Part shown: positions 57-63,709 of the stretch, piece after piece
Numbering within the stretch: the first letter of the stretch is position 1
Layout: each line of letters starts with the position of its first letter
Virus record (IMG/VR): IMGVR_UViG_3300043331_000441
Location: 1-64,000 of that record
Direction: 5' to 3' (one strand)
From: a virus
DNA length: 64,000 bases
Notes under the pieces: generated by a model
What the model saw: only the letters and a program-made list of their open reading frames with translations
What the model was told of the DNA's origin: nothing
The model's database searches: none
Program-made: the position numbers and the translations under genes

Positions 57-407
57 ATGCGGTACGGGTATTTCACCCATCATCCGCAGGAAGGGATCGG
101 CGTCGCGAAGCGCCACGATCGTGTGCACGCGTCGCAGGGTCTCGACATGGAAGCCCTTTGCGGCTGGGAGTTTGTCGGCCAGGCCGACCCCAAGCTGACA
201 AAGACCCCCAAGAAGCTCGGGGAGCTGCTCGCGGAGGTCACGTGCGTGCGCTGCGTCCGCGAGATCCTCGGCTTCGAAACCGGGCCGTCCCCGTTTGGCG
301 GCAGCGGCTGTCGCAACTGCGGGGCGCCCGAGGGAGAGCCGTGTCGTCACGACGCTGGCTGCGTCGACTCCGACCGCTCGTCAGGAGGCGTGTCATGGGC
401 TACGTGA
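57..407 (+). CDS. hypothetical phage protein, Cys-rich
   Basis: ORF with GAAAGGAG RBS; CxxC motifs. Confidence 0.7.
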   Translation: MRYGYFTHHPQEGIGVAKRHDRVHASQGLDMEALCGWEFVGQADPKLTKTPKKLGELLAEVTCVRCVREILGFETGPSPFGGSGCRNCGAPEGEPCRHDAGCVDSDRSSGGVSWAT

Positions 408-748
408 CGCTCCTCCTACACGAAGCAGAGCTGATCGAGGGTGGCATGTACGTCGATCAGGGAACCGAGCAATGCCGTGACATGACGGCTGCGATGCCGG
501 TCACGTTGCACCAGGAAGACCTCAAGCGCGGCACGTTCGTGGTCGCGCTGCACACGCTACAAGGGCACATGGTGCCGTTCACGTGGACGTATGACGGCGG
601 CGACCATCGCGCCGTCATCACCAGCGGCTGTCAGGCCGGAGGCACGCTGGAGCAGTTCCTCTACAAGCGTGCCGAGCACGCAGCGAAGGCCATCCACAAC
701 GGCTGGGCGCCCGAGGTCGTCGAACACACGCCCCGCCAAGACGACTGA
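395..748 (+). CDS. hypothetical protein
   Basis: ATG 395 after AGGAGG; start trimmed from track ORF 158..748. Confidence 0.7.
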   Translation: MGYVTLLLHEAELIEGGMYVDQGTEQCRDMTAAMPVTLHQEDLKRGTFVVALHTLQGHMVPFTWTYDGGDHRAVITSGCQAGGTLEQFLYKRAEHAAKAIHNGWAPEVVEHTPRQDD

Positions 749-756
749 GAACTGCC

Positions 757-1002
757 ATGTTTCGGACACAAGCCGAACGTGAACAGTTCTGGGCACGAAT
801 CGACCGCAAGGACTGTGTTGCGCATCCCGGTTTCATTCCGGAGCAACACGGGCCGATGCGCCACTTCGATCGTGAAATGCGCTGCGCAAGCCCAGGCTGC
901 GGCTCGCCCACGCATTTCAAGCTGGAGGGAATCCCGCGCTGCATGGTGCATTGCCTGCGCGAGATGAACGAAATGCTGATCGGCATGGGAATCAACGTCT
1001 AG
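757..1002 (+). CDS. small Zn-finger-like protein
   Basis: CASPGC...CMVHC. Confidence 0.65.
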   Translation: MFRTQAEREQFWARIDRKDCVAHPGFIPEQHGPMRHFDREMRCASPGCGSPTHFKLEGIPRCMVHCLREMNEMLIGMGINV

Positions 1003-1026
1003 GCCGGGCACCCCGGCAGGAGGAAC

Positions 1027-1266
1027 ATGGACAAACAGGACAACCCGGTAACACTCGCCCGCAACAGCTTCGGATCCGCGATGGCGAGAAGGCAGATCGG
1101 ACACGAACTGAGAGACGCGGCCTCGCACCTGTATGGGGCTGTGGACAGGCTCAGGAAGGTCGGCCTGCTAGCAGACGCCGAGCAGATCGAGAACATCGCT
1201 GACTCGGTGCGCAACAGGTTCGAAATCGACGAGGACGGCGACGCGCTCGCCTACCTCGACGTCTAG
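1027..1266 (+). CDS. hypothetical protein
   Basis: AGGAGG RBS, acidic helical ORF. Confidence 0.7.
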   Translation: MDKQDNPVTLARNSFGSAMARRQIGHELRDAASHLYGAVDRLRKVGLLADAEQIENIADSVRNRFEIDEDGDALAYLDV

Positions 1267-1520
1267 AACGCTGCCTGAAGCCGCCGTGATCTAGAGACGG
1301 CGGCTTCGCGGAGCGTCCGGACGCTCCCGTCCGCACAAAGAGAAGGGCCGCACAGCAGCACCCTGGTTGGCGCGTGGTGAGTGGCACACGCGCCGGGTGG
1401 CTCCAGGATCAGGTGGCAACAGGCGGCTCTTCTCTGCGGGCGCCCGGCACCAACAAGGAGGCAGCCCATGAGGCTGATCCAACATCTGCCCCTCGTCGCA
1501 GCACTTGCGGAGGGCAGCTG

Positions 1521-1721
1521 ATGATCGCGTACTGGGTAATCGAAGCCACAAAGGACGGCGTCGAAATCGACGAGCACCCGCTCACGCTCGCGCAAGGCTC
1601 GCGCCGCACGGCAGAGGACCTGGCCAACTGGGTCAGAGAGCACACGCCGTATGGCTGGTACGCGGACATCACGCCGCGACCCCTCGCGCGTGGTGACCTC
1701 GCCGAACTGATTCTCGCCTGA
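1521..1721 (+). CDS. hypothetical protein
   Basis: ATG 1521, TGATG coupling. Confidence 0.6.
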   Translation: MIAYWVIEATKDGVEIDEHPLTLAQGSRRTAEDLANWVREHTPYGWYADITPRPLARGDLAELILA

Positions 1722-1940
1722 GGTTGTTCGCGGGCGACCCCGACCAAGCGCGGGGCGCCCCGGGAACAACGGAAGGAGGTAGGCGTATGACGTGGCCGAC
1801 GAAGGCTCGCTGATTTTTTGCCAACGATCTCGGCGTCGCTGCTGAGCGTTCCCCAGAGTCCCTACGGGGCCTGGGGGGAACGAAAGGAGCAAACCATGAG
1901 GCGCTAGCCAAACAACCCCACATAGGACGTGGGCGTGGTC

Positions 1941-1967
1941 AAGGCCCCGGCTTCGAGCCGGGGCCTT
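1941..1967. terminator. intergenic hairpin
   Basis: AAGGCCCCGG-CTTCGAG-CCGGGGCCTT perfect 10-bp stem; no clear U tract. Confidence 0.45.
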
Positions 1968-2019
1968 GGGGCGCCCGCCCCAACCGGCCGAGCGGTTTCT
2001 CGGCAAGCAAGGAGGCGAC

Positions 2020-2238
2020 ATGATCCGCAGGATCATCAACCGCCTGCGGCGGACAGAGCCGTCGCAGAAGCACGGGAAGGACTTCACGCCCGACCCGTGG
2101 GAGTCCGTCAGGGCACCCCTCGTCGCGTGCGGCGAGTCCCGGCGACGGGGCATGACCAGGCTGCCGATGCCGCACGCGAAGGCGCGGAGGCGGGCAGCCA
2201 ACAAGCGGGCACGCGCTGCGCGGCGCGTGAACCGCTGA
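2020..2238 (+). CDS. basic hypothetical protein
   Basis: AAGGAGG RBS. Confidence 0.6.
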   Translation: MIRRIINRLRRTEPSQKHGKDFTPDPWESVRAPLVACGESRRRGMTRLPMPHAKARRRAANKRARAARRVNR

Positions 2239-2435
2239 TGGACGAGTCGACACGCTTCTACAGCGTGCGACTCGACGGCGACCCGAACACCTTTCTCATC
2301 CACGCGACTTCGATGATGGAAGCGATGGACAAGGTGTTCGCGCACTCACATCCGAGGCGCGTCGAGATCTTCGAAATGATCGATGCCAGCGAACCGTCGA
2401 TCATCGATCTCGTCAACGACACCGGGCGACACTGA
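2238..2435 (+). CDS. hypothetical protein
   Basis: TGATG coupling. Confidence 0.6.
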   Translation: MDESTRFYSVRLDGDPNTFLIHATSMMEAMDKVFAHSHPRRVEIFEMIDASEPSIIDLVNDTGRH

Positions 2436-2499
2436 GCGCTGAACGGGGCGCCCCTCACGGGGCGTCCTACTTGAGCGTTCAACGAGAGGAGTGGGGAAA

Positions 2500-2727
2500 A
2501 TGGTCGATGAGCGTATTACGCAGGCCGAAGATCTTGCGCGTACCTCGCATGATTACGCGAAGGCGTTTCGTATCTCGGCTCACATCTGCCGCAGCCGGTT
2601 CCCGGAAGCAGCGGCAGGACAGACGCTTGCGCGGATCTTCGAGGAGAAGGCGCACCTCGAAGACGATTTGTGCAAGCGCCTCTCAGACGATCCGATCGGC
2701 ACGTTGCGCGCCGAAGGACTCGCCTGA
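2500..2727 (+). CDS. hypothetical protein
   Basis: ORF with GAGGAG upstream. Confidence 0.6.
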   Translation: MVDERITQAEDLARTSHDYAKAFRISAHICRSRFPEAAAGQTLARIFEEKAHLEDDLCKRLSDDPIGTLRAEGLA

Positions 2728-2792
2728 ACGTGTGACGGCGCGGGGCGCCCGACGCCCCGACGCCGTGTGCGTTCAAGCGAAAAGGAGGAAAT

Positions 2793-3074
2793 ATGGACAG
2801 CACAGATACCACCCGTACGCCATACACGAAGCCGCTCACTAGCTTCGAGATGCGCGAAATCCAGCGTCGGATCAGCGAAGTCGTGCGCGCACGAACCAAC
2901 CCCCCCGCAGGCAAGCGCATCGGCTCCTTCGTCCCACTCTCCACGCACGAGGAGCGCGTCAAGGAAGTCGAGGACGCAATCGCGTTCGCGGCTCGCGGGA
3001 AGCTGAGGCGAGACGCGTGGCCGCCCGTGTGTCACGTGCGCCCAGCGGCGCTGAGTGCGCTCGTCACACCATGA
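2793..3074 (+). CDS. hypothetical protein
   Basis: AAAGGAGG RBS. Confidence 0.65.
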   Translation: MDSTDTTRTPYTKPLTSFEMREIQRRISEVVRARTNPPAGKRIGSFVPLSTHEERVKEVEDAIAFAARGKLRRDAWPPVCHVRPAALSALVTP

Positions 3075-3316
3075 CGCCGCGCACGGTTAGGCAGCACCGG
3101 GCGCCCAGCAAAAGGGCGCCCGGTGCGTCTATTCTGGCGGAAAGGAACTTGCATGATTGCTGGTATCGCATCAACCATTTTCACGATCTGCGTTGCGCTT
3201 CTTTCTTTGGCTGCGCTGGTCATGGCGGGCCTCATCCACGTTCGTTTTCGTAACGGCAGCCCGCTCGCACGCCTGAACGACAAACGCTAGGCAGCACTGA
3301 GCGCAACGTGCGTTGA

Positions 3317-3700
3317 GTGGTGCCTATCCCGGGCACCGCGGCTAACCACCGCACATACGACACGAAGGAGGGCCCACACGTGGTCTCTTTCACTGTCATC
3401 GGCGGCCCGCACAACGGGGCGCCCTTCGAGCCGGTCGCAGCGGCGGCTGCGCGCATCAAGCAGGTGCGCAAGGAGTTCGTCGAGGCCGCTGCGCAACGCA
3501 AGGAGCAGCACGAGCAGGAGCTGCGTGCGCTCGACAGGAAGCGCAAGGACGAGGAGCGCGAGGCGCGTCGTGCTGCGCGGCAGCAGTACCGCGAAGAGGT
3601 CGCGGACGCATACCGCGAGCGCTACGAGATCGCGCGGCGTGAACGCGAGGAGTTCATGCAGCGCATCGGCAAGCGCAGCCGCGTCCGCGTCTACGCGTAG
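3317..3700 (+). CDS. coiled-coil hypothetical protein
   Basis: E/R-rich helical ORF, high GC3. Confidence 0.65.
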   Translation: MVPIPGTAANHRTYDTKEGPHVVSFTVIGGPHNGAPFEPVAAAAARIKQVRKEFVEAAAQRKEQHEQELRALDRKRKDEEREARRAARQQYREEVADAYRERYEIARREREEFMQRIGKRSRVRVYA

Positions 3701-3767
3701 CACACACCCCCAGCTCAGGGCCTCCAGCGGAGGCCCTGGGCGTCAGCATGTCCGGAGGGAGTCCGAA

Positions 3768-4013
3768 ATGCTTCGCTTGCAGTGGGATGGTTCCTTCTTC
3801 AAGATCAGGCGCGACGCTCGCCGCTATGGGGGCGCCCGACGCTGGGATGGCAAGCGCATTCCCTGGATCATCCGTTTGCGTGTGTTCGGGCCTGGTATCG
3901 CGGTTGGCCCGATCGTTGTGCGCCGGATGATGATTCACAGTTTCATCCCGCACGTTCCTCACGGTCTTTACTGTCGCAAGTGCGATCATATTCGCGACCT
4001 GCATTACAGGTAA
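3768..4013 (+). CDS. hypothetical protein
   Basis: GGAGGGAG RBS, C-terminal CxxC. Confidence 0.55.
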   Translation: MLRLQWDGSFFKIRRDARRYGGARRWDGKRIPWIIRLRVFGPGIAVGPIVVRRMMIHSFIPHVPHGLYCRKCDHIRDLHYR

Positions 4014-4094
4014 GCGCGTTTCGCACAGCCACAGCGTCCTGATCCCCACCACGGGAGTCGGGCGCCCTTTTTACCTTAGAAAGGAGAACGCCCC

Positions 4095-4442
4095 ATGCGG
4101 CGTGGTCCACGCATAACCGAACTAGACATCACGCGCTTCACAGAAGGTGACTGCCATATCCTCGCCAAAGTGCTGCATTTGCGCACGCTGTGGCCTCTGT
4201 GCACGTTCCACAGAGGCGACTGCGAGCCGGACCTGCACGCATTCGTCTGTGATGGTGACACCGCAATCGACGTGCGGGGCGCCCGGCCGATCGACGACCT
4301 GCTCTGCGAGTGGGAAGATGCCGCAGGGTTCATAGAAATTTCTGAACTAAACTGGGGGAAGGAAATATTCCCCGGCTCGCGACGGAGAGCGCACACGATC
4401 GCACCCTTGCTGATCCCCGCCGGTGCTATGCGCGTTCCGTAG
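4095..4442 (+). CDS. hypothetical phage protein
   Basis: GAAAGGAGAAC start motif; FTEGDCHILA..HAFV. Confidence 0.7.
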   Translation: MRRGPRITELDITRFTEGDCHILAKVLHLRTLWPLCTFHRGDCEPDLHAFVCDGDTAIDVRGARPIDDLLCEWEDAAGFIEISELNWGKEIFPGSRRRAHTIAPLLIPAGAMRVP

Positions 4443-4479
4443 AGCCACAGCGCGTCCTGCAGAGCCACAGCGTTTTGTC

Positions 4480-4550
4480 GAGGGAGTAGCTCGAAGGTCG
4501 AGCCTCGGGTTGTGATCCCGACGGTGTGGGTTCGATTCCCACCTCCCTCT
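4480..4550 (+). tRNA. tRNA-His(GUG), no encoded CCA
   Basis: Acceptor GAGGGAG/CTCCCTC, D GCTC/GAGC, anticodon arm TCGGG-TTGTGAT-CCCGA, T arm GTGGG-TTCGATT-CCCAC. Confidence 0.85.
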
Positions 4551-4646
4551 TGGCGTCAGAGAGAATCCGACATGGCGGCTAGTGACCCGTTCGAGCCGGG
4601 CGCGGGCTGCGGGAGTGTTCACCGCAGGGACACCTCTCTGACGCCA
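4551..4646 (+). ncRNA. structured RNA candidate abutting the tRNA-His 3' end
   Basis: Perfect 13-bp closing helix TGGCGTCAGAGAG/CTCTCTGACGCCA with internal hairpins CCCG/CGGG and CTGCGG/CCGCAG. Confidence 0.5.
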
Positions 4647-4693
4647 CAAGAATCCCCCGCATTTGTACGGGAGCGCCCCGGAAAGGGGGCAAC

Positions 4694-5206
4694 ATGAAGG
4701 GTCTCTACGGAGCAATCATTGCTCTTGGACGGTCGATCAGCGAGATCGATCTGCACGGCTGGACGCTCGGCACATTCGGTAACGAGCACCACAAGAAGTG
4801 CGCGGTCGGGCTGCTCTCGTACTCGTTCGTGCAGACTCCCGACCATCTCTCGCTCTGCGGCCTGACAGACGACGAGACAGAGGCAGCGATCCTCGCTGCC
4901 TACGCGCTCTACGACGTACTCAGCCCTGAACAGGTGGAGCGATTGGAAGCTGCTCTTCGCCGCCTCGACGAGGACAACAACGACTCGCACTTCGACCGTG
5001 TGTACGCGTCGTTCCGCGACCGAAACAACGCGTCGCTTACGGAAATCGAGGACATCACCATCATCACGAACGACCAGGTGATGACCGAGCAGGCTGAGGC
5101 GCGCAGGTGGTTCTCGGATGCGCTCGACCTGCTCGCAGAGCAGCTGCCGATCCCGGCAGAGGCGGTCGTCCCCGAGCACGAGGGGCGCCCAGTCACATTC
5201 GTCTAG
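4694..5206 (+). CDS. DUF6197-like actinophage protein
   Basis: GWTLG...CAVGLL; paralog of next gene. Confidence 0.6.
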   Translation: MKGLYGAIIALGRSISEIDLHGWTLGTFGNEHHKKCAVGLLSYSFVQTPDHLSLCGLTDDETEAAILAAYALYDVLSPEQVERLEAALRRLDEDNNDSHFDRVYASFRDRNNASLTEIEDITIITNDQVMTEQAEARRWFSDALDLLAEQLPIPAEAVVPEHEGRPVTFV

Positions 5207-5221
5207 GAAAGGAGAACGTCC

Positions 5222-5767
5222 ATGAACAACCTCTACGAGGCCGTCATGATCGTCGGCCGCTCGATCGAGGAGATCGACCGCACGGGCTGGACGTGCGGCG
5301 CACTCGGCGTGAAGAACACTCCCAGGTGCGCCAACGCGCTGCTCAGCGTGTCAAGCGAGCGGCGGATGCCGGAGTACATCTACGACGCTGCTCGGCGTGC
5401 ACCCGAAACCGCGATGCCGCTGCGTCTCGCCGCGAAGGCGCTGTTCGAAACAGCGCCCGAGGAGGCGATGAAGGTCGTACGCAAGGCGTGGGACGAGGAT
5501 CCCGACGGGTACTGGGAGTTCGAGAAGGCGTTCAATGATCCACTGAACGGCGACCTCGGATACATCGGCGATGGGCTCGCGCAAATCAACGACGCCGACC
5601 ACATCGACAGCGGCTCGGAGGTTCCCATCCTCACGACCAAGACCGCCCGCGCGTGGTTCCAGCGGGCGTTCGACAAGCTCGCCGAGGAGTTGCCGGAGCC
5701 GATCCCGGCCGATCCGCCGCTCTACGTGAGCGACATCGCCTCGTCGCGCACGCCGGAGCACGTCTAG
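5222..5767 (+). CDS. DUF6197-like actinophage protein
   Basis: GRSIEEIDRTGWTCG...CANALL; GAAAGGAGAAC. Confidence 0.6.
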   Translation: MNNLYEAVMIVGRSIEEIDRTGWTCGALGVKNTPRCANALLSVSSERRMPEYIYDAARRAPETAMPLRLAAKALFETAPEEAMKVVRKAWDEDPDGYWEFEKAFNDPLNGDLGYIGDGLAQINDADHIDSGSEVPILTTKTARAWFQRAFDKLAEELPEPIPADPPLYVSDIASSRTPEHV

Positions 5768-5779
5768 AAGGAGGCGACC

Positions 5780-5881
5780 ATGTCCAGCCCCTGGAACATC
5801 GAGGTGCAGGTGGCGATTGTCACCTTCGCCGTGGTTGCGCTCGTCGTCTTGCTCATTTTCTGGGCGCTTGGGTGGACGTAG
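5780..5881 (+). CDS. 33-aa single-TM peptide
   Basis: AAGGAGG RBS; MSSPWNIEVQVAIVTFAVVALVVLLIFWALGWT, below track cutoff. Confidence 0.55.
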   Translation: MSSPWNIEVQVAIVTFAVVALVVLLIFWALGWT

Positions 5882-6087
5882 CGCGCTTCCCTCCTGGATG
5901 GACGCCTACGGGCGTCCGTCCTGGGGGATGACCGCCGTCGTTTTGGAGTCCCGCATACGCGGCGAAGGGAAGGTGACCACGATGTAACGCCAGCGTGAGA
6001 CAACACACATCTCTTGTTGCGCGACGTTGCCTGAGGGGCGCCCTCCGGACGCCCCTCGCGAAACGCCGACAAAGGAGGTGAAAAATC

Positions 6088-6390
6088 ATGCGTTTCTGTG
6101 ACAAGTGTGGGAAGCCAGTCGATCCCACCAACGACGCCGTGGAGCTTGACATTGAGCTGCACCGAGCAGAGGGCGATTTGTTCCCGATCGGACTCGTCAT
6201 TGCACAGGCACGGCATCTGCTGCCGGTTGCCGGGTGCCCCGGCTCGCCAAGCCGGGCGCAGTACCTCGAAGGACAACCGCGTGACCCACGGGGCATCTAC
6301 GGCTACGACCCGGAGCACGAGGAGCCGATCCGGAAGGCGTACGCCTCGATGCGGGACGCGGCTCGGGAAGGAGTGGCATATGAAGCGTGA
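6088..6390 (+). CDS. Zn-ribbon hypothetical protein
   Basis: AAAGGAGGT RBS; FCDKCGK. Confidence 0.7.
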   Translation: MRFCDKCGKPVDPTNDAVELDIELHRAEGDLFPIGLVIAQARHLLPVAGCPGSPSRAQYLEGQPRDPRGIYGYDPEHEEPIRKAYASMRDAAREGVAYEA

Positions 6391-6670
6391 CCTTTACATG
6401 ACGCTGCACTACATTCCGCATTACCGCACGCGCATGGCGGTCGTCGACTTCTACAGCCGCTGGAGCAGGTTCTTTTCTGTCATGGCGGATGAGTGGTGGG
6501 AGCTGCGCTTCGCAAAACGCCACAGGCCTTCGCGCGGGAAATCCACAAACGAGGATCGCTTCTGCAGTTGCGGCGTGCAGTACGGGCATGGGGAGTACTA
6601 CGACGAGGACGCCTGGTATCACCACAAGCAGGCGGCACGCGACGAGGAGTACGGGAGGAGGTGGAAGTGA
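6380..6670 (+). CDS. hypothetical protein
   Basis: AAGGAG RBS, overlap coupling. Confidence 0.6.
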   Translation: MKRDLYMTLHYIPHYRTRMAVVDFYSRWSRFFSVMADEWWELRFAKRHRPSRGKSTNEDRFCSCGVQYGHGEYYDEDAWYHHKQAARDEEYGRRWK

Positions 6671-6837
6671 GCGGCCATCACAAGTGGAGCGAGATCAAGC
6701 ACAAGACAACACCGGAGCAGCGCGAACAGGCGCGCCAGAAACTTCAACGTCAGCTTCGGTTTGCAAAGCTCAAGCCGTGGAACTGGGCGTGGGTTGTGCG
6801 CCTGGAGGCGCGGTTCTACCGCTGGCGTTACCGGTAA
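6667..6837 (+). CDS. small basic protein
   Basis: GTGA coupling; MSGHHKWSEIKHK. Confidence 0.55.
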   Translation: MSGHHKWSEIKHKTTPEQREQARQKLQRQLRFAKLKPWNWAWVVRLEARFYRWRYR

Positions 6838-6864
6838 CGGGGGCGCCCCCGAAAGGAGAACAAA

Positions 6865-9518: not shown

Positions 9519-9521
9519 TCC

Positions 9522-56922: not shown

Positions 56923-56933
56923 TACCGACTTAT

Positions 56934-57086
56934 CGGGATGTAGCTCAGTGGTAGAGCACCGGTCTGATGTACCGGAGGACGCGTCTGAAAAGACATAGGC
57001 ATTCCAGAAGGGCGACGTATTCGCGCTTTTGAGAAGCCGGAGCGAAATACTCCGTAAGCCGAAAGGTTCGAATCCTGCCATCCCGA
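56934..57086 (+). tRNA. tRNA-Ile(GAU)-like gene with 81-nt T-stem insertion (56983-57063)
   Basis: Acceptor CGGGATG/CATCCCG + A73; CCGGT-CTGATGT-ACCGG; AGGAC; GC|insert|AGG-TTCGAAT-CCTGC. Confidence 0.7.
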
Positions 57087-57088
57087 CT

Positions 57089-57550
57089 ATGAAACGACCA
57101 ACACTCATATGGGCACAAGACCTCGGAGAACCCGAGTGCCCCTACGCACGACGCTGGGTTCTCAATCTTGGCTTCGCCAGTATTCGCGTCCACCACTGGG
57201 TCCGCAGCGACGACAAGCGCGCGCCGCATGATCATCCATGGTGGTTTCTGACACTGGTGCTGTCAGGCTCCTACGAGGATTGGGGCTATCCGGAACGCAC
57301 CGCCAAGGGCGCCCCGCGCCTGGATCACAAAACAGTCGATCCGCTCAAACGTGGCAGCGTGCGTTACCGGCCAGCCCATCACATTCACTCGGTGAGCGTC
57401 CCGCCGGGCGGATGCTGGACAGTCCTCCTCACGGGAAGGGAGCGCAAACAGTGGGGATTCTGGACGCGCCGGAAGGATGGCGCTGCGCGTTTTCTGCGTT
57501 CTGCGCGATACTTCTATAAGCACGGGCACCATCCGTGCGATCAGGAATGA
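57089..57550 (+). CDS. cupin-fold phage protein
   Basis: VHHW..SD..R.PHDHPW.F.TLVL.G.Y.D...HSV. Confidence 0.8.
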   Translation: MKRPTLIWAQDLGEPECPYARRWVLNLGFASIRVHHWVRSDDKRAPHDHPWWFLTLVLSGSYEDWGYPERTAKGAPRLDHKTVDPLKRGSVRYRPAHHIHSVSVPPGGCWTVLLTGRERKQWGFWTRRKDGAARFLRSARYFYKHGHHPCDQE

Positions 57551-57647
57551 AAGGAGAACAAGTGAGCGAGAGGCGAGCATTCCCTCACTCGCGCCAGCCG
57601 GTGTGCCCCACTGAATAAAGCCATGGAAGAATGCGACCACGACTGGG

Positions 57648-57878
57648 ATGACGACTTCATGGGCGGTTCAATCTGCCGAAAGTGTCGTACGCATGTCTAA
57701 AAACGTCTTCTGGGAGGGCGTGTCTGCCAAGGATGACCCGCGTCGGTTCAGACGTCCAGTACGGGTGGATGGAAAGAATTGCCGTGACCGTCAACCCTGG
57801 GGAGGATTCACCGACCAGGAGCGATGTGAATGCGTCGGAGAATGCGAGTACGATCGCCGACAGAATGAGGCTTCGTGA
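57648..57878 (+). CDS. hypothetical protein
   Basis: Cys-containing ORF; start uncertain. Confidence 0.45.
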   Translation: MTTSWAVQSAESVVRMSKNVFWEGVSAKDDPRRFRRPVRVDGKNCRDRQPWGGFTDQERCECVGECEYDRRQNEAS

Positions 57879-58167
57879 CCCAGGACTCCTCGCGCTTCTT
57901 TCGCATACGTATGACGAATGCGCATTGTGTGGCACCACACAAAATCTGCACCTGCACCACGTGCTCTACCGCTCGCAAGGAGGTGATGATGTCCGTGGGA
58001 ATATCGTTTGCCTCTGCCGCTCGTGCCATGAAGCAGTTCACCGAGGCGATAAAGCTGCTCTCCACGCACACATCCGCCTCTTCCGGCCAGACGTCGTGGA
58101 ATATCTGCAAGGACGACTAGGTGTAGATGCAGCGAATGCACGTTTAGCGTCCGATGCCTGTGGATAA
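57865..58167 (+). CDS. HNH endonuclease
   Basis: CALC...HLHH...SQGG.D...N...LC..CH...H. Confidence 0.85.
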   Translation: MRLRDPGLLALLSHTYDECALCGTTQNLHLHHVLYRSQGGDDVRGNIVCLCRSCHEAVHRGDKAALHAHIRLFRPDVVEYLQGRLGVDAANARLASDACG

Positions 58168-58188
58168 CATATCCCCAGGTGATTGTGG

Positions 58189-58509
58189 ATGGCAACAAAG
58201 CTGTACGACAGCCAGCGCTGGCGCGACTACCGTTCGCGCGTTCTCGCAGACGACGCTGAGTGCGCCTTCGCGCGCCTGGCGGGCGACTGCAGCGGCGCGC
58301 TGCAAGTTCATCACGTTGAGCCACTCGCTGACGGTGGGCCACCGTTTCCCGCCAGAGATGGCGTGGTTGTGTTGTGTGTCGCGCACCACAGCTGGCTCCA
58401 CGGCTGGAAGCGACGTAAGAAGCAGACCTGGAAAAGGTGTCCTCATCACCATGTGACGCCCGAAGGGCGTCGCCTGTGTGAACGTAGGCTGAACCGAGTC
58501 GCCGCCTAG
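58189..58509 (+). CDS. HNH endonuclease (phage, terminase-associated type)
   Basis: LYDSQRWR..R..VL...C...VHH..P...GG...LC..HH. Confidence 0.8.
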   Translation: MATKLYDSQRWRDYRSRVLADDAECAFARLAGDCSGALQVHHVEPLADGGPPFPARDGVVVLCVAHHSWLHGWKRRKKQTWKRCPHHHVTPEGRRLCERRLNRVAA

Positions 58510-58539
58510 TACGTCCGATCGCAAAATTACTGTTTCCCC

Positions 58540-58935
58540 GTGGAAGTTTCCCCGGAGGAAAGGGCATGGGCTGCTGGTCTCTTCGAGGGCGAGGGTTGTC
58601 TTGCATACAGCAACGGACGCCCGCGTCTACAACTCAAGATGATCCATGAGGAAAGCGTTCGACGTGTTCATGCAGCGATTGGGCTTGGCAAGGTGTACGG
58701 GCCGTACGGCCCGTACACCAGCCAATTCGGTAGTAAGCCTGTGTTCATGTGGGTCGTCGACCAAGACGAGGTTGCGGAGGCAATCGAACTCTTGCGTCCC
58801 CATCTGTCAGAGTGGGCCGCCAAACGGCTTGATCGAACTGCGGACGAACGCATCAATGATGTTCCTCGTGCGGTGCGTAAGCCCAAGCGTCGCCGCCCGC
58901 CAGAGAACACAGATGCCGACGACTGGTTGTCATGA
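58540..58935 (+). CDS. single-motif LAGLIDADG homing endonuclease
   Basis: RAWAAGLFEGEGCL...L.LKM...G.G.V...WVV. Confidence 0.8.
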   Translation: MEVSPEERAWAAGLFEGEGCLAYSNGRPRLQLKMIHEESVRRVHAAIGLGKVYGPYGPYTSQFGSKPVFMWVVDQDEVAEAIELLRPHLSEWAAKRLDRTADERINDVPRAVRKPKRRRPPENTDADDWLS

Positions 58936-59246
58936 CACGTGGATTAGTAGACTGTCATGACGCATGGGCGGAGCATGGTGCGCAGCGAGAGGCTGTGACG
59001 AGGGTCGGCACACCCTGGTTGAAACACTCCGCCCTTGCACTAAGTAGTCTGTTCAGATCTGCGGCCCCAACCCGTCGAGCACGAAGGGCATCTTCACAGG
59101 CGGGAGGGCCGCAGAAAATCAGTGGGCCTCAGGTCTGTAGTAGCGAGTTGATCGCCGTGAACTGGCCTCGTGCAGCCTTTGTGAGCCGTAGTTGACGACA
59201 CGCTGCGGTGAGCAGGGGAAAGACCCGGCTAAGCGGGCGCCCACAA

Positions 59247-59314
59247 ATCCCGGCACGCCTGACAGGGAAGTGTTCTCAGTGGATAGGGTCAGTACATCCG
59301 AGAACCGCCGGGAT
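59247..59314 (+). ncRNA. structured RNA candidate with possible pseudoknot
   Basis: ATCCCGGC/GCCGGGAT, GTTCTC/GAGAAC, GGAT/ATCC; CTGAC (59259) complementary to loop GTCAG (59288). Confidence 0.45.
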
Positions 59315-59320
59315 CATGAT

Positions 59321-59405
59321 CTGCGCAGAGGGAGACGGGCGCGCGGCCATGCGTCGGAATCAGGGGCGGCGACCTTCCCCCCGACGTATTCGTACGGACT
59401 CCCTC
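59321..59405 (+). ncRNA. pseudoknot element E1
   Basis: CTGCGC/GCGCGG crossing GAGGGAG/CTCCCTC; inner ATGCGTCGG/CCGACGTAT. Confidence 0.6.
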
Positions 59406-59409
59406 ATTT

Positions 59410-59481
59410 GCCCCGGTCGTTCAGCGGCCAGGATGCCGCCCTGTCGAGGCGGAGACACGGGTTCGATTCCCGTCCGGGGCG
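59410..59481 (+). tRNA. tRNA-Asp(GUC), no encoded CCA
   Basis: GCCCCGG/CCGGGGC; CCGCC-CTGTCGA-GGCGG; ACGGG-TTCGATT-CCCGT. Confidence 0.9.
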
Positions 59482-59482
59482 T

Positions 59483-59572
59483 CTGCGCAGAGGGGAGACG
59501 GCGCGCGCAGCGCGGAGTCGATGAAGGAACAGAACCTCCTCCCTTCATCGCCTGCGGGATCGGACTCCCCTC
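59483..59572 (+). ncRNA. pseudoknot element E2
   Basis: CTGCGC/GCGCAG crossing GAGGGGAG/CTCCCCTC; inner CGATGAAGG/CCTTCATCG. Confidence 0.6.
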
Positions 59573-59590
59573 AGATGAAAGGAGAACACA

Positions 59591-59719
59591 GTGAAACTGC
59601 CGTTTCGACGTGCTGCGAAATATCGGACGCGCCGCCGGTGGGGCCGATGTCTGCTGTGCGGGCGCTTCGGGCGTCTCTACGATTGCGTGGGCGATTGGCT
59701 TTGTAGACGATGTGGATAG
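59591..59719 (+). CDS. 42-aa Zn-finger peptide
   Basis: GAAAGGAGAAC + GTG; CLLC...CRRC. Confidence 0.6.
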   Translation: MKLPFRRAAKYRTRRRWGRCLLCGRFGRLYDCVGDWLCRRCG

Positions 59720-59912
59720 AGGTGATCAAAAACGCCAGACACGAACTTCCTGAGTAAGACTCCGGGCCCGACGTCCGTAGTCGGATGGTGGATGCTCTAC
59801 CCTCGTCGGAGGCCCCATCCTGGCGGCGTCTAGTTGGGAGTGATGCCCCAACACGCACCTGCACCTGGGAACAGAACGCAGGGCGTTTCATCACAACAGA
59901 AGGGAGAACACG

Positions 59913-60392
59913 ATGGGTTTACGAGAGATCATCACTGGCAGCGACGCCGAGGATAAGAAGCTCAGCGCGTCCGTCGGTCTACGGCCTTACAAGCGCTGGT
60001 ACTTCTTTGGCTGGAAGTCCCCGCAGATTCTCTACCGGCGGCTACGCAACAAGTACTACCCACTCAAGCGTCTGCGTTGGGCTTCACAACGCGCACGACG
60101 CGGCTACGACGACCCCGCGATCTGGAACCTCAATTCCACACTTGCGGAACTCACAGTGATCGGCTGCCGCAAGCATCGCGAGTACGGAAACGGGTACCCC
60201 GCAGAGTTCACCGAGGAGTACGGCAGCGGCGGCGGGTGGGAGAAATGGGAGGACATCCTGCGCCGCATCGAAGAGGGCTTCCAGGCCTGGCTTGATGAGG
60301 ACGGCTTCTTCCACGAGAAGCCAGAGCAGGAAGCGAAGTTCAAGGACGGAATGGCCCTCTATGGCGAATGGTTCGGTTCGCTCTGGGACTAA
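59913..60392 (+). CDS. conserved phage hypothetical protein
   Basis: QRA.RGYDD..IWNL...GYP...W..IL..I..GF...F.SLWD. Confidence 0.75.
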   Translation: MGLREIITGSDAEDKKLSASVGLRPYKRWYFFGWKSPQILYRRLRNKYYPLKRLRWASQRARRGYDDPAIWNLNSTLAELTVIGCRKHREYGNGYPAEFTEEYGSGGGWEKWEDILRRIEEGFQAWLDEDGFFHEKPEQEAKFKDGMALYGEWFGSLWD

Positions 60393-60404
60393 AGGGAGAA
60401 CACA

Positions 60405-60641
60405 ATGGTTGAGTGGACAGCAGCCGAGAAAGGCTTCTCGCTCTCCGACGATGAGCAGAACGGCGTCGTGATCGCCGTCAACACGATCCTGCGCGGCGCA
60501 TGGACACCCGCAGGAGTAGAGAAGTGGTGGGACCGCCCGCGACACGAGCTGCGCGGGGCCACACCCAGAGAGGCCCTGCCGTATATCCCAACGGACGTCG
60601 TGGAACTGGCGATTGCCGGGATGATGCAGGGCGGATCATGA
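60405..60641 (+). CDS. MbcA/ParS/Xre-antitoxin C-terminal-like protein
   Basis: W.......WW.RP...L.GATP..AL. Confidence 0.55.
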   Translation: MVEWTAAEKGFSLSDDEQNGVVIAVNTILRGAWTPAGVEKWWDRPRHELRGATPREALPYIPTDVVELAIAGMMQGGS

Positions 60642-60651
60642 AAGGAGAACA

Positions 60652-60828
60652 ATGAGTGCTTCAACAACACCACAGGGGCACCCCAACAGGCGCGACGAGA
60701 TCATCCTTGCGCTCGCGATCTTCATGTGGATGGCTGTCGCGGCTGTCGCGTGGCTGGCGTACTCGTACTGGCACGGATTCGACCCAGAGCTGTGCCGCTC
60801 CTACGGGGGCTGCCAATGGACCGCGTGA
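60652..60828 (+). CDS. 58-aa single-TM peptide
   Basis: Start motif; IILALAIFMWMAVAAVAWLAY. Confidence 0.6.
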   Translation: MSASTTPQGHPNRRDEIILALAIFMWMAVAAVAWLAYSYWHGFDPELCRSYGGCQWTA

Positions 60829-61845: not shown

Positions 61846-62017
61846 CGGCCGCGTCTGGAACGTCCTCGGCGACCCCGAAGACATCTGGAAACGGGTTATC
61901 CAGATACCGACCAACGGGTCAACGACCCACTGGGTCGAGTTGACGACGCTCGACGGCTATGTCGTCCGCATCCGCAAGGATCATGTCACTACAGTGGCGG
62001 ATGTTGGTGCGGCATGA
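61805..62017 (+). CDS. hypothetical protein
   Basis: Start motif. Confidence 0.7.
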   Translation: MAEETKMTKLWTRDGRVWNVLGDPEDIWKRVIQIPTNGSTTHWVELTTLDGYVVRIRKDHVTTVADVGAA

Positions 62018-62310
62018 GGGAACTAAGTCAGTATGAACTGGACAGCCTGCTTGGTGCCTACTTCATCTGCCCGTTCTGCAAGTCAGAGGAGTGGTATAAG
62101 GGCGGCGAAGGTGGCATGTCGCAGAACGTCTTCTGCGCTAACGAGGAGTGCGGCGCTGGCTTCAACGTGATGGGCCCCAAGCCGGTCAACCTCGGCGGCC
62201 AACTGATCCAGCCACCCAAGGGTGGCGACCCTGGCCCGCTGGAACCAGCACCTGTCAAACTGGACGCCCCGCCCACGCAGCTTCCCTGGTGGAAAAGGTT
62301 GTTCACATGA
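62014..62310 (+). CDS. Zn-ribbon protein, paralog of 33521..33838
   Basis: CPFC...GGMSQNVFCANEECGAGFNV. Confidence 0.7.
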   Translation: MRELSQYELDSLLGAYFICPFCKSEEWYKGGEGGMSQNVFCANEECGAGFNVMGPKPVNLGGQLIQPPKGGDPGPLEPAPVKLDAPPTQLPWWKRLFT

Positions 62311-62510
62311 CGTGTGCGCAATGCGGTCGCAAGATGGACGAGCGGATCGAGACGATCTGGCAGCACGTCACCGGCTGGACGAAGAAGCGCGATCAGGGCG
62401 GCACAAATCACATCGCGCTCCGCGAAGAGCTGCCGGAAGTGATGTGCAACGGCTGCATGACATTACTGCTTGATGGCCTTAACCCGGGCCAGCAGTCGCT
62501 GGGCGTCTGA
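62307..62510 (+). CDS. small Zn-finger protein
   Basis: CAQC...CNGC. Confidence 0.65.
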   Translation: MTCAQCGRKMDERIETIWQHVTGWTKKRDQGGTNHIALREELPEVMCNGCMTLLLDGLNPGQQSLGV

Positions 62511-62788
62511 TGCCGCGCGTCAAGATGGTTTACCAAGAGCACGGCGAGTGGGCGCCCGCAAGCGCGCAGCCTGGCACCTGTAAGCATCCGCGCGACAGGC
62601 TGCGCTACGACAGCAACTTCGCCATGCCGATCCACATGTACTGCCGTGATTGCGGCACGCGTTATCTCAGCCCCTACCACGGCATGACGCAGGAAGAGAT
62701 GGACGAAGTGCGTGAACGCGCCAAGCAGCGGGCGATCGAATACGGATTCATGGACGAAAACGGCAACTGGCTCGACGACGATGACTGA
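62510..62788 (+). CDS. Zn-binding hypothetical protein
   Basis: CKH...CRDC. Confidence 0.65.
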   Translation: MPRVKMVYQEHGEWAPASAQPGTCKHPRDRLRYDSNFAMPIHMYCRDCGTRYLSPYHGMTQEEMDEVRERAKQRAIEYGFMDENGNWLDDDD

Positions 62789-62954
62789 TTACGGCATTAC
62801 GTGGACGCCAGAAGAACCCGATCTCTACAAGATCGAGTTTGAGGAAGCGATCGTTATGAGCGAGTCGGGGGATCTACGTATCGAGTTGCCACTTCCGCGC
62901 GGTACATTCCGCGTGCGCGTCATCGTCGAGACCGACGAAGAACCACAGGATTGA
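62781..62954 (+). CDS. small acidic protein
   Basis: Overlap coupling. Confidence 0.55.
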   Translation: MTDYGITWTPEEPDLYKIEFEEAIVMSESGDLRIELPLPRGTFRVRVIVETDEEPQD

Positions 62955-63376
62955 GCCAAGAACTCGTCTACCCACTGACCGGCGAGGTCGTCTCCTACGA
63001 CGATCCGGCTGGCTGCGTGAGGCTGCTCGGCGAGATCCGTGAGCTGGAGCAGAAACTTAAGTCGCTCAAGTCAGAACTCACGCTCGCGTTAGAGCAGGAG
63101 TTCTCACGGCAGGGGCGAAAGACGATCGAGGTGAATGGCGTCAAGGCGGAGCTGCGTGGCGGCAGCGGCATCGTGTGGGACATCGAAGTCTTAGAAGAAC
63201 TGCGGCAGCTCGGGTTACCGGAAGAAAGGATGGACGAGCTGATGCAGGCTGAGATCACATACAAGGTCAACGGCAGCGTGGCGAAGCAGATTGCGGCAGC
63301 CAACCCTGAGTACGCTGATGTGATCGAACGCGCGAAACAGCGCGTCCCGAAAGCGACCTACGTCGCGCTTGGCTAA
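62951..63376 (+). CDS. hypothetical protein (Gp157-like helical)
   Basis: TTGA coupling; coiled coil then beta-rich segment. Confidence 0.65.
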   Translation: MSQELVYPLTGEVVSYDDPAGCVRLLGEIRELEQKLKSLKSELTLALEQEFSRQGRKTIEVNGVKAELRGGSGIVWDIEVLEELRQLGLPEERMDELMQAEITYKVNGSVAKQIAAANPEYADVIERAKQRVPKATYVALG

Positions 63377-63581
63377 GGGCTCAGAGCAGCCGAGATGGGA
63401 ATGGTCGCGGGGGGTGAGGGAGTGTGCCGGTTGTGAGCGCACGCTCCGGATCGCAGACGTCCGCTGTTGGCACGCGGGCGCGGACGGCATCCCGGTCATC
63501 TTCTGCCACGAGTGCTTCCCCGGACGTTGGCGAGAGTGGCTTACATCTGCGCGCACGTCTGCGCAGGGCGATCACGACTGA
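63369..63581 (+). CDS. small Zn-finger protein
   Basis: CAGC...CHEC. Confidence 0.55.
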   Translation: MAKGSEQPRWEWSRGVRECAGCERTLRIADVRCWHAGADGIPVIFCHECFPGRWREWLTSARTSAQGDHD

Positions 63582-63709
63582 CGGCAGCATTGATCCAGAA
63601 GAAATTGTAGAGTTGATCGCCCGACAAATAGAACGAGCGAAAGGAGCAGCGATGCGTAGGACAATCTAGCCCTGCTGCGGATCAGCGGGGCGCCCCCAAG
63701 GAGGCGCTT

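What the first reader, a model, noticed from the sequence alone, without database searches (positions are those of the whole stretch)
321..63696. Highly iterated palindrome GGG(G)CGCCC(C) throughout the phage, independent of reading frame
Seen: about 55 GGGCGCCC and 22 GGGGCGCCCC by eye (e.g. 1752, 2445, 6839, 8502, 9354, 13394, 17339, 19399, 23507, 27017, 40100, 55964, 63687). An independent-base model at an assumed 63% GC gives about 6 and under 1. Inside genes it is read as both Gly-Ala-Pro and Gly-Arg-Pro, so selection acts on the DNA. It is densest at 0.3-6.9 kb (16 copies) and often sits directly before an RBS (6839, 63687; variant at 7191). Established: comparable to cyanobacterial HIP1; the core GGCGCC is the NarI/KasI site. 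Inference: a phage-wide binding, methylation or recombination tag, possibly loading sites for the three ParB-like proteins or crossover points for cassette shuffling.
Basis: partly seen in the sequence, partly recalled or inferred. Interest (0 to 1): 0.75.

Follow-up and report, generated by a model that had tools for sequence, protein, structure and literature searches.

The report
Selected GGGCGCCC palindrome saturating an actinophage
An uncultured 130-kb phage of actinobacteria-like hosts and its closest relatives keep the 8-letter palindrome GGGCGCCC about 18 times more often than chance, evenly spread and strongly enough to bend codon and amino-acid choice, while shunning the same GGCGCC core in any other context; this is a phage counterpart of the still unexplained cyanobacterial HIP1 word, and which protein reads it is not known.

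Summary
Every null fails to explain this (dinucleotide shuffle 2.4; Markov orders 0-5 give 4-15; synonymous-codon shuffle 8.6±2.8 against 61 genic copies). It is the most over-represented 8-mer in the genome.

All three reading frames are used. 24 of 35 Gly-Arg-Pro tripeptides are spelled with it (2.6 expected), and GRP itself is 3-fold enriched. Sites are conserved at orthologous positions (64% and 44%, against about 20% background), including synonymous positions. They are still being gained separately in each lineage, and they are spaced more evenly than random.

The GGCGCC core is at its expected total (89), but only 12 copies lie outside the octamer (85 expected). CTCGAG, GAGCTC and GCCGGC are absent (45-90 expected), which is restriction avoidance.

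The enrichment is limited to a subclade (≥78% identity). More distant kin with the same avoidance profile lack it, which argues against a purely host-imposed word.

The only DNA methyltransferase is an orphan Type-II-like enzyme with an N4-cytosine-type TSPPY motif. It is my preferred but unproven reader. The host could not be identified. An overlapping window of this scan noted the same pattern, and the scan found analogous palindromes in other phages.

The parts
322..63695 (.). Array of 55 GGGCGCCC copies in the window (77 in the whole contig). 22 extend to GGGGCGCCCC. No conserved sequence lies beyond a G preference at -1 (47/77) and a C preference at +1 (38/77).
   Evidence: Start positions: 322, 705, 1438, 1753, 1969, 2446, 2743, 3099, 3114, 3417, 3830, 4060, 4277, 5183, 6036, 6841, 8503, 8998, 9355, 9975, 10661, 11474, 11658, 12026, 12662, 13396, 14802, 16029, 17340, 18420, 19400, 21778, 22742, 23508, 24259, 26015, 27018, 30358, 34088, 34899, 36493, 38346, 40101, 40569, 43237, 44031, 49410, 51859, 55966, 56872, 57307, 59235, 61479, 62550, 63688.
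322..6848 (.). Densest stretch: 16 copies in 6.9 kb, among very small + strand genes and short spacers at the left contig end.
   Evidence: 20 copies in the first 10 kb against a local expectation of 0.48.
3094..3126 (+). Perfect 13-bp-stem hairpin with a T-rich tail, built from two motif copies (3099 and 3114). It is the only clear terminator-like structure that uses the motif.
48416..49678 (+). The only DNA methyltransferase of the genome (P0001, 420 aa). It is a beta-class N6_N4_Mtase with motif IV TSPPY and an N-terminal zinc ribbon, it matches Type II R-M methylase models, and it has no recognisable nuclease partner. It is the candidate reader or writer of the word, and it carries one motif copy at 49410.
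   Evidence: No PF00145 or Vsr anywhere in the genome.
17606..18394 (+). DUF6551 / phrog_1033 'ParB-like partition protein' with faint DndB/DpdB resemblance. An alternative candidate reader. A 10-mer copy lies 25 nt past its stop (18419-18428).
39231..40190 (+). Second, weaker DUF6551 / phrog_1033 ParB-like protein. A 10-mer copy lies inside its 3' end (40100-40109).
1006..60683 (.). 21 of the genome's 24 copies of the central-transition variants GGGTGCCC/GGGCACCC (5.5-fold enriched). They are either weaker sites or intermediates.
   Evidence: The three-way orthology shows several arose de novo and not by decay of a full site.

Best explanation
GGGCGCCC is a highly iterated palindrome of this phage lineage. 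It is a double-stranded DNA recognition word kept by selection at evenly spread positions along the whole genome, in genes and between them. I propose that it is read by a restriction-modification-type enzyme, most likely the phage's own orphan Type-II-like N4-cytosine methyltransferase (48416-49678). That enzyme would mark these sites on phage DNA and thereby also make this one GGCGCC context safe from NarI/KasI-type host restriction. All other GGCGCC contexts, like CTCGAG, GAGCTC and GCCGGC, have been purged by restriction avoidance.

Shown: the over-representation, DNA-level selection, ongoing lineage-specific gain, even spacing, restriction to one subclade, purging of naked GGCGCC, and the presence of a single orphan amino-methyltransferase.

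Inferred: that this enzyme recognises the octamer, that it makes m4C, and what benefit the marked sites give.
For: Over-representation under all nulls; it is the top 8-mer of the genome.

DNA-level drive: 24 of 35 GRP, 13 of 47 [GRW]AP and 23 of 58 xGAx positions are spelled with the word, against 2.6, 1.1 and 2.5 expected. The GRP peptide occurs 37 times against 12.3±3.4.

Conservation: 7/11 and 4/9 orthologous sites are kept, against 16-21% for background or G/C-only 8-mers. Third codon positions inside sites are conserved 20/22 against a 61% background (p 0.003).

Independent gains by point substitution in each of three lineages.

Spacing CV 0.44-0.70 against 0.93±0.17 in five segments or records (P 0.002-0.04). 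Constraint-filtered neutral accumulation would not give this.

A contiguous 8-bp G/C palindrome is the typical recognition format of Type II enzymes, and actinomycetes are the classic source of 8-bp G/C cutters (my knowledge).

The genome has exactly one DNA MTase. It has TSPPY (the N4-cytosine signature, my knowledge of beta-class enzymes), a strong match to Type II MTase models and no nuclease partner. It is conserved at 70-84% identity in at least five other metagenomic contigs.

Ancestral-type kin avoid GGCGCC altogether (G005 1 vs 10.7; G004 2 naked vs 15.7; Arthrobacter phage Atuin 0 vs 8). The enriched subclade tolerates 20-89 GGCGCC-containing sites, which implies protection of that context.

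Precedent: cyanobacterial HIPs, including a GGCGCC HIP in Calothrix PCC 7103, co-occur with orphan methyltransferases (PMC4390886). HIP1 shows the same conservation and non-random spacing (PMC5861425).
Against: No direct link between the methyltransferase and the word. Its specificity is unknown, and the sequence matches mix N6-adenine and N4-cytosine enzymes.

Contigs carrying 30-55% homologues of the enzyme show no comparable palindrome.

The relatives that share the motif (G001-G003) show no MTase, though they are structural-arm fragments.

Protection from restriction explains tolerance of the octamer, not its 18-fold enrichment; the selective benefit remains unspecified.

The host genome was not available, so a host reader is not excluded.
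Confidence: 0.4

Rival explanations
1. The word is the binding box of another phage DNA-binding protein: one of the two ParB-like (phrog_1033/DUF6551) proteins, or a ribbon-helix-helix dimer. This would form a Noc/KorB-like array of dispersed sites that organises, compacts or globally regulates the phage chromosome. Methylation plays no part.
For: Two ParB-like proteins are encoded, and each has a 10-mer copy at or just past its 3' end (post hoc, roughly 0.5% by chance). About 77 dispersed, evenly spaced sites resemble the roughly 70 Noc-binding sites of B. subtilis or the 12 KorB operators of RK2 (my knowledge). 13 of 77 copies sit just upstream of an RBS. An 8-bp palindrome fits one RHH dimer, as in the MetJ met box (my knowledge). 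The central YR variants are enriched and gained de novo, as expected for tolerant protein binding.
Against: Canonical ParB_N is not detected. ParB-family HTH dimers recognise palindromes of about 14-16 bp, but no conservation extends beyond 10 bp here. Positions within genes are uniform, with no preference for gene ends (KS p 0.70). No RHH protein was identified here. This reading does not explain why naked GGCGCC is purged while the octamer is tolerated under apparent NarI-type pressure.
Confidence: 0.22
2. The word is imposed by the host. It is the host's own HIP or a Chi-like or other host-machinery signal that the phage mimics (for example to stop a RecBCD/AdnAB-type exonuclease), or it results from a host repair bias.
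For: The host is unknown and could not be examined (one search gave only a 39% hit in a Saccharibacteria MAG). Density is highest at one contig end, as expected for end protection.
Against: Kin with the same restriction-avoidance fingerprint (CTCGAG, GAGCTC, GCCGGC, GGCGCC all near 0), which therefore probably infect similar hosts, lack the enrichment. G005 has 0 in 14 kb, where about 4.7 would be expected at G000's structural-arm density. G004 has 3 in 21.6 kb, and Atuin has 0. Known Chi sites are asymmetric and read on single strands (my knowledge). The right contig end shows no rise. Even spacing and conservation of synonymous sites argue against a simple mutational bias.
Confidence: 0.2
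3. The enrichment is a functionless by-product. A methyltransferase acting on the word biases mismatch repair or mutation fixation so that sites accumulate (Elhai's model for the alternative HIPs), with no benefit to the phage.
For: The model was proposed for GGCGCC and other HIPs (PMC4390886). Gains continue independently in each lineage, by stepwise point substitutions. Density is highest where protein constraint is probably weakest, in tiny left-end genes.
Against: Spacing is more even than random in every segment. Sites and their synonymous positions are conserved well above background. One-mismatch neighbours are not uniformly depleted; GGGTGCCC/GGGCACCC is 5.5-fold enriched and not consumed. 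Actinobacteria generally lack methyl-directed MutS/MutL repair (my knowledge). No Vsr is encoded.
Confidence: 0.1
4. The sites are recombination hot spots that mark crossover points for exchange of gene cassettes among related phages.
For: One of four tests was borderline: G002 in its own coordinates has 7 sites within 150 nt of an HSP boundary against 3.5 expected, P about 0.05. HIP1 has recently been linked to DNA uptake and recombination (10.1101/2024.09.10.611283 and PMC13756078, abstracts only).
Against: The other three tests were null. Most sites lie inside genes at uniform relative positions. Sites are conserved within colinear, well-aligned blocks.
Confidence: 0.05

Closest known systems
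HIP1 (GCGATCGC) and the alternative highly iterated palindromes of cyanobacteria, including GGCGCC in Calothrix PCC 7103 (PMC4390886, PMC5861425)
   Same: A G/C-rich palindromic octamer, 15-fold or more over-represented, in all frames and between genes. It distorts codon choice, is conserved at orthologous positions beyond background, is non-randomly spaced, and co-occurs with an orphan DNA methyltransferase. Its function is unknown.
   Different: Here it is carried by a virus lineage and not a cellular phylum, and the word is different. The density is lower (0.6 per kb overall, 2 per kb at the left end). The core hexamer is purged in every other context. The associated enzyme is an N4/N6 beta-class amino-methyltransferase and not the GATC/CGATCG pair. 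No link between enzyme and word is shown.
Hyper-abundant AGTACT/CAGTACTG palindrome of enterobacterial jumbo phages
   Same: A phage-borne, selection-maintained short palindrome in all frames whose reader protein is unidentified.
   Different: A different word, a different phage group and a different host phylum. Those notes are unpublished AI notes and were not re-tested here.
Restriction-site avoidance in phages (PMC6286503)
   Same: Total absence of CTCGAG, GAGCTC and GCCGGC, and 7-fold depletion of naked GGCGCC, fit classical avoidance of Type II sites.
   Different: Avoidance predicts loss of all GGCGCC. Here one flanked form of the avoided core is enriched 18-fold.
Stoperators of Cluster A mycobacteriophages (my knowledge)
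   Same: Tens of copies of one short word dispersed through an actinophage genome, including inside genes, and read by a phage protein.
   Different: Stoperators are 13-bp, asymmetric and oriented with transcription, and they are bound by the immunity repressor of temperate phages. This word is a symmetric 8-10-mer, and no such repressor link is known.
Noc-binding sites / KorB operators (ParB-family proteins with many dispersed palindromic sites; my knowledge)
   Same: Roughly 10-80 dispersed palindromes, and ParB-like proteins are encoded.
   Different: Those sites are 13-16 bp. Here only 8-10 bp are conserved, and the ParB-like proteins are distant (DUF6551).
Chi sites
   Same: A G-rich octamer, over-represented and dispersed, that could protect linear DNA.
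   Different: Chi is asymmetric and orientation-dependent, and it is a property of the host genome. The host was not testable here.

Membership tests
Highly iterated palindromes (HIP class, sensu Elhai 2015) | Short palindrome over-represented by an order of magnitude against composition-aware expectation | tested here: met
   77 observed against 4-15 (Markov orders 0-5), 2.4 per window (dinucleotide shuffles) and 8.6 (synonymous shuffle); top 8-mer of the genome.
Highly iterated palindromes (HIP class, sensu Elhai 2015) | Occurs in coding DNA in all frames and in non-coding DNA | tested here: met
   25/13/23 by frame plus 16 intergenic.
Highly iterated palindromes (HIP class, sensu Elhai 2015) | Sites conserved between related genomes above background (Xu et al. 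2018 criterion for selection) | tested here: met
   7/11 and 4/9 conserved against 16-21% background; third codon positions 20/22 against 61%.
Highly iterated palindromes (HIP class, sensu Elhai 2015) | Non-random (regular or periodic) distribution along the chromosome | tested here: met
   Spacing CV 0.44-0.70 against 0.93±0.17, P 0.002-0.04 in five segments or records. Periodicity in the strict sense was not tested.
Highly iterated palindromes (HIP class, sensu Elhai 2015) | Cognate orphan methyltransferase that modifies the word | tested here: inconclusive
   One orphan Type-II-like MTase with TSPPY is present. Its specificity is unknown, and co-occurrence across relatives could not be tested.
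Highly iterated palindromes (HIP class, sensu Elhai 2015) | Property of a cellular (cyanobacterial) genome | tested here: not met
   The carrier is a virus contig and its viral relatives. Hence 'works like a HIP', and not a member of the HIP1 family proper.
ParB/parS-type (Noc, KorB) binding-site arrays | A ParB-family protein with an N-terminal ParB/Srx domain is encoded | tested here: inconclusive
   PF02195 is not found. Two DUF6551 proteins hit phrog_1033 'ParB-like partition protein' and show sub-threshold matches to ParBc_2, DndB and DpdB.
ParB/parS-type (Noc, KorB) binding-site arrays | Palindromic site of about 13-16 bp with two HTH half-sites | tested here: not met
   No conservation beyond positions -1 and +1 of the octamer.
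Restriction-site avoidance | A Type II palindrome strongly depleted against Markov expectation | tested here: met
   CTCGAG 0/56, GAGCTC 0/45, GCCGGC 0/90, naked GGCGCC 12/85. The same holds in relatives G002-G005.
Chi-like exonuclease-control sites | Over-represented in the host chromosome and oriented with replication | not testable with these tools
The word is a palindrome, so it has no orientation.
7-deazaguanine (Dpd) or phosphorothioate (Dnd) DNA modification | DpdA/TGT-like transglycosylase or preQ0 pathway genes | tested here: not met
   PF01702 and PF06508 are absent.

The most novel reading that the evidence does not exclude
This would be a virus-borne HIP system. A phage lineage acquired an orphan 8-bp-specific N4-cytosine methyltransferase and has since been selected to spread its target evenly over the genome, even rewriting proteins (the Gly-Arg-Pro excess). 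The methylated word would serve as an epigenetic self-mark: it turns a restriction-sensitive core into a protected one, and phage machinery may also read it. If true, it offers a small, genetically tractable model of how highly iterated palindromes arise and what they are for.
Probability: 0.3. Interest if true: 0.75.

Novelty: new variant of a known kind. Interest (0 to 1): 0.6.

Why it matters
HIP1 has been known for thirty years without an agreed function. A phage that shows the same syndrome has about 200 genes, a single candidate methyltransferase and relatives that differ in site content. The contrast between 'octamer favoured' and 'naked core purged' is a clean natural example of a phage escaping restriction avoidance for one sequence context. 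It also shows that DNA-level words can measurably reshape a viral proteome (a 3-fold excess of Gly-Arg-Pro). In practical terms, the word and the four-site avoidance fingerprint could help tie uncultured relatives, and eventually a host, to this lineage.

Tried and rejected
1. Chance, composition or codon-usage artefact: rejected by all nulls.
2. Part of a longer repeat or mobile element: rejected; no conserved flanks and no enrichment of GGGCG-N(0-15)-CGCCC half-site hairpins.
3. Terminator stems as the cause of the left-end excess: only one clear case at 3094-3126.
4. A simple flank-conversion model (NGGCGCCN turning into the octamer), prompted by the hexamer total equalling its expectation: not favoured. 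Orthologues of private sites differ at 2-6 positions, including the core.
5. Vsr-type short-patch repair, or decay by m5C deamination: there is no C5-MTase and no Vsr. The T/A central variants are gained de novo and are not only decay products.
6. BanI-type (GGYRCC) avoidance: rejected; naked GGTGCC and GGCACC are at expectation.
7. Crossover hot spots: not supported.
8. A deazaguanine or Dnd-like modification system, suggested by faint DndB/DpdB hits: no TGT or QueC.
9. The second over-represented word family (CCGGTAAC/GTAACGCC) as a lineage-specific regulatory tag for finding relatives: it comes from collagen-like Gly-X-Y repeats in fibre genes.
10. Host identification: a high-GC3 secreted-protein gene gave only a 39% hit in a Saccharibacteria MAG. 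The nearest cultured phages are ≤37% identical. PLSDB hits to the MTase are mostly proteobacterial plasmids and useless as a host proxy.
11. Left-arm relatives: three protein scans of viral contigs found none.
12. Literature search for the exact word returned only primers and unrelated uses.

Full report
WHAT THE WINDOW IS. The window is the first 64 kb of a single 130,556-bp IMG/VR virus contig (CheckV completeness about 92%, linear, 60.1% G+C). The left arm (1 to about 70 kb) is almost entirely + strand and made of many small genes. The right arm is - strand and holds TerL, portal, capsid protease, major capsid protein, adaptor, fibres and a glycan operon. Capsid, protease and TerL place it among actinobacteriophages, but the nearest cultured phages are only 30-37% identical: Actinomycetia phage DSL-LC01, Arthrobacter phage Atuin, Gordonia phage GMA2 and Microbacterium phage Pumpernickel. 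The host is not known.

THE OBSERVATION.
- Dinucleotide shuffles of the window give 2.4 and 0.11.
- Markov chains of order 0-5 give 4.2-14.7 and 0.2-1.4 for the genome.
- Shuffling synonymous codons within each gene, with proteins kept, gives 8.6±2.8 against 61 genic copies. Permuting codons gives 5.0±2.2.
- The word is the most over-represented 8-mer of the genome, ahead of the ribosome-binding word.
- Nothing is conserved around it except G at -1 (47/77) and C at +1 (38/77).
- All three frames are used (25/13/23) and 16 copies are intergenic.
The refutation 'disappears under a codon- and Markov-aware null' therefore fails.

A SECOND HALF OF THE PATTERN. The hexamer GGCGCC occurs 89 times, which is its expected number (82-96). 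However, 77 of these copies are the octamer. The other fifteen NGGCGCCN contexts sum to 12 against about 85 expected. Naked GGTGCC and GGCACC are at expectation, so the avoided word is specifically GGCGCC, the NarI/KasI/SfoI site. The genome also has no CTCGAG (56 expected), no GAGCTC (45) and no GCCGGC (90). This is classical restriction avoidance. An overlapping window of this scan had noted the same contrast by eye (e1-5958209), and my counts agree.

STRENGTH OF THE DRIVE.
- Of 35 Gly-Arg-Pro tripeptides, 24 are spelled GGGCGCCC, where codon usage predicts 2.6.
- 13 of 47 [G/R/W]-Ala-Pro and 23 of 58 x-Gly-Ala-x positions are likewise realised (1.1 and 2.5 expected).
- GRP itself occurs 37 times against 12.3±3.4 in shuffled proteins, whereas PRG, RGP and GPR occur 5-10 times.
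The DNA word has therefore shaped amino-acid sequences as well as codon choice.

RELATIVES. Capsid and TerL searches of viral contigs found relatives that cover the structural arm. Counts below are observed (expected).
- G002 (56.6 kb; 87% capsid identity): 23 copies (1.2).
- G003 (89% capsid identity) and the near-identical G001: 10 (0.9) and 8 (0.7).
- L062 (79% TerL identity): 2 in 4 kb (0.2).
- G004 (72% capsid identity): 3 (1.1).
- G005 (52% capsid identity): 0 (0.8).
- L010, L011, L065 and L066 (61-66% identity): no enrichment.
All of G002-G005 share the absence of CTCGAG, GAGCTC and GCCGGC and the depletion of naked GGCGCC. L010, L011, L065 and L066 have neither feature. Among cultured phages, Arthrobacter phage Atuin shows the same four-site avoidance plus many more, and no octamer. 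DSL-LC01 and GMA2 show neither. The octamer enrichment is thus a derived trait of one subclade inside a group with one restriction-avoidance fingerprint. The word appears in assemblies from several independent samples, so it is not an assembly artefact.

SELECTION ON SITES.
- In blastn alignments of the structural arm (about 75-80% identity), G000 sites are conserved at 7 of 11 positions in G002 and 4 of 9 in G003. The background is 16-21% for all 8-mers and 19-20% for other G/C-only 8-mers.
- Third codon positions inside sites are conserved 20/22 with G002 against 61% for background G/C third positions (p 0.003), and 16/20 against 67% with G003 (not significant).
- A three-way comparison shows 4 sites shared by all lineages, 3 shared by two, and private gains in each lineage (2, 4, 4). 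The gains arose by point substitutions, with one caught in steps: CGGTGCCC, CGGCGCCC, GGGCGCCC.
- Spacing is more even than random everywhere tested: CV 0.63, 0.70 and 0.58 in three G000 segments, 0.55 in G002 and 0.44 in G003, against 0.93±0.17 (P 0.002-0.04).
- Positions within genes are uniform (KS p 0.70).
- Density falls from 20 and 11 per 10 kb at the left end, to about 5-6 across the rest of the left arm, to about 3 in the structural arm. It is always at least 7-fold above local expectation.
- 13 of 77 copies lie within 45 nt upstream of a start codon (4.4±2.0 expected), a real but minor subset.
- Only one terminator-like hairpin is built from the word (3094-3126).
These are the diagnostics that Xu et al. 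used to argue that selection maintains HIP1 (PMC5861425).

NEIGHBOUR WORDS. The central transition variants GGGTGCCC/GGGCACCC are 5.5-fold enriched (24 against 4.3), and GGGCGTCC/GGACGCCC about 2-fold. Variants that keep a naked GGCGCC core are depleted. In the three-way orthology several T/A variants arose de novo and not from a full site. I therefore read them as weaker or intermediate sites and not as deamination debris. The sample is small.

CANDIDATE READERS. Six-frame family searches find no C5-methyltransferase, no Vsr, no canonical ParB_N, no TGT/DpdA and no QueC.

There is exactly one DNA methyltransferase, at 48416-49678: PF01555 (E 1.6e-45), with a strong match to Type II R-M methylase models (PADLOC, E 3.6e-105), an N-terminal zinc ribbon and motif IV TSPPY. 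From my knowledge of beta-class enzymes, SPPY/F marks N4-cytosine methylases and DPPY marks N6-adenine methylases. The PDB and NCBIfam matches mix both kinds, so the base specificity remains inferred. Its neighbours are not recognisable nucleases, so it is an orphan. It has 70-84% orthologues on at least five other metagenomic contigs, but I could not fetch those contigs (see the limits below). More distant homologues (30-55%) sit in contigs without any comparable palindrome. G001-G003 show no methyltransferase, but they are colinear fragments of the structural arm only.

Two DUF6551 proteins (17606-18394 and 39231-40190) match phrog_1033 'ParB-like partition protein'. A survey of 103 left-arm proteins also found HTH_23, Peptidase_S24, HNH-repeat and two weak Lar-like proteins.

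INTERPRETATION. The word is a DNA-level signal under selection in this phage subclade. That part I hold with high confidence. Three things point to a restriction-modification-type reader:
- the format, a contiguous 8-bp G/C palindrome with partial 10-bp extension;
- the coexistence of octamer enrichment with purging of the naked core;
- the fact that ancestral-type kin purge all GGCGCC, while the enriched subclade tolerates 20-89 such cores.
Cyanobacterial HIPs, including a GGCGCC HIP in Calothrix PCC 7103, show the same association with orphan methylases (PMC4390886). My preferred model, at about 40%, is a phage-borne HIP whose sites are methylated by this enzyme. What the marked, evenly spaced sites then do is not established; a self-mark, broader protection, or a landing pad for phage machinery are all possible.

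Rivals:
- A binding-site array for a ParB-like or RHH protein, about 22%. The precedents (Noc, KorB) have longer sites.
- A host-imposed word such as a host HIP or Chi analogue, about 20%. The clade-restricted distribution among phages with the same avoidance fingerprint disfavours it, but it cannot be excluded without the host.
- A functionless by-product of methylation-biased repair, about 10%. Even spacing and synonymous-site conservation disfavour it.
- Crossover hot spots, about 5%. No consistent association with homology breakpoints was found.

NOVELTY. I found no paper describing this word or a HIP-like element in a phage. The literature search is limited to open-access text. Earlier agents of this scan reported analogous palindromes (AGTACT/CAGTACTG) in enterobacterial jumbo phages, also without a reader (e1-178290, e1-274822; not re-tested here). 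So this is a new variant of a known kind and not a new category.

LIMITS.
- Gene calls are my own crude GC3-based calls, so frame and intergenic counts may shift by a few.
- G002 and G003 share ancestry with G000, so the conservation tests are not independent of each other.
- Only the structural arm could be compared, because no left-arm relatives were retrievable.
- The host test was not possible.

Noticed in passing
whole contig (window 1-64000 and beyond): Absolute absence of CTCGAG (56 expected), GAGCTC (45) and GCCGGC (90). The same absence is seen in relatives G002-G005 and, with many more hexamers, in Arthrobacter phage Atuin. This is a restriction-avoidance fingerprint that could help assign a host.
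   Followed up: partly
proteome of the contig: The tripeptide Gly-Arg-Pro occurs 37 times against 12.3±3.4 expected, while its permutations occur 5-10 times. This is a proteome-level footprint of a DNA word.
   Followed up: yes
G000 72135-72170 and 101290-103310 (beyond the window): Collagen-like Gly-X-Y repeats in fibre genes generate the second family of over-represented words (CCGGTAAC, GTAACGCC) and probably also ACCGGT/CACCGGTG.
   Followed up: partly
window 3094-3126: A perfect 13-bp-stem hairpin with a T-rich tail, made of two motif copies. It is the only strong intrinsic-terminator-like site on the + strand in the first 9 kb.
   Followed up: partly
relatives G003/G001 (L022-L025): In this lineage naked GGCGCC is only about 2-fold depleted (10 against 20), compared with 6-8-fold in G000, G002 and G004. 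This suggests relaxed NarI-type pressure or broader protection there.
   Followed up: no
window 1-64000: A Pfam survey of 103 left-arm proteins found no DNA polymerase, helicase or primase family. It found AAA/MoxR-like ATPases, STAND NTPases, cREC_REC, PspA, radical SAM, a SLOG/YAcAr protein next to the MTase, Peptidase_S24, and two weak Lar-like zinc-ribbon hits.
   Followed up: no
whole contig: The tetramers GATC (1.56x) and GTAC (1.62x) are over-represented, and TTAA (0.33x), AATT and CTAG are under-represented, against a first-order Markov model. GCGATCGC, the HIP1 word itself, is depleted (3 against 15).
   Followed up: no
L016, L015, L018/L044 (contigs with 42-54% MTase homologues): Mild (about 5-fold) excess of CGGCGCCG or CGCCGGCG in three unrelated viral contigs that carry homologues of the methyltransferase. 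This may be a codon effect and was not tested further.
   Followed up: no
G002 (IMGVR_UViG_3300015371_000043): CheckV rates this 56.6-kb record as 100% complete, yet it is colinear only with the structural arm (68-130 kb) of G000 and lacks any counterpart of the 64-kb left arm. Either the estimate is wrong or the left arm is a lineage-specific addition.
   Followed up: no
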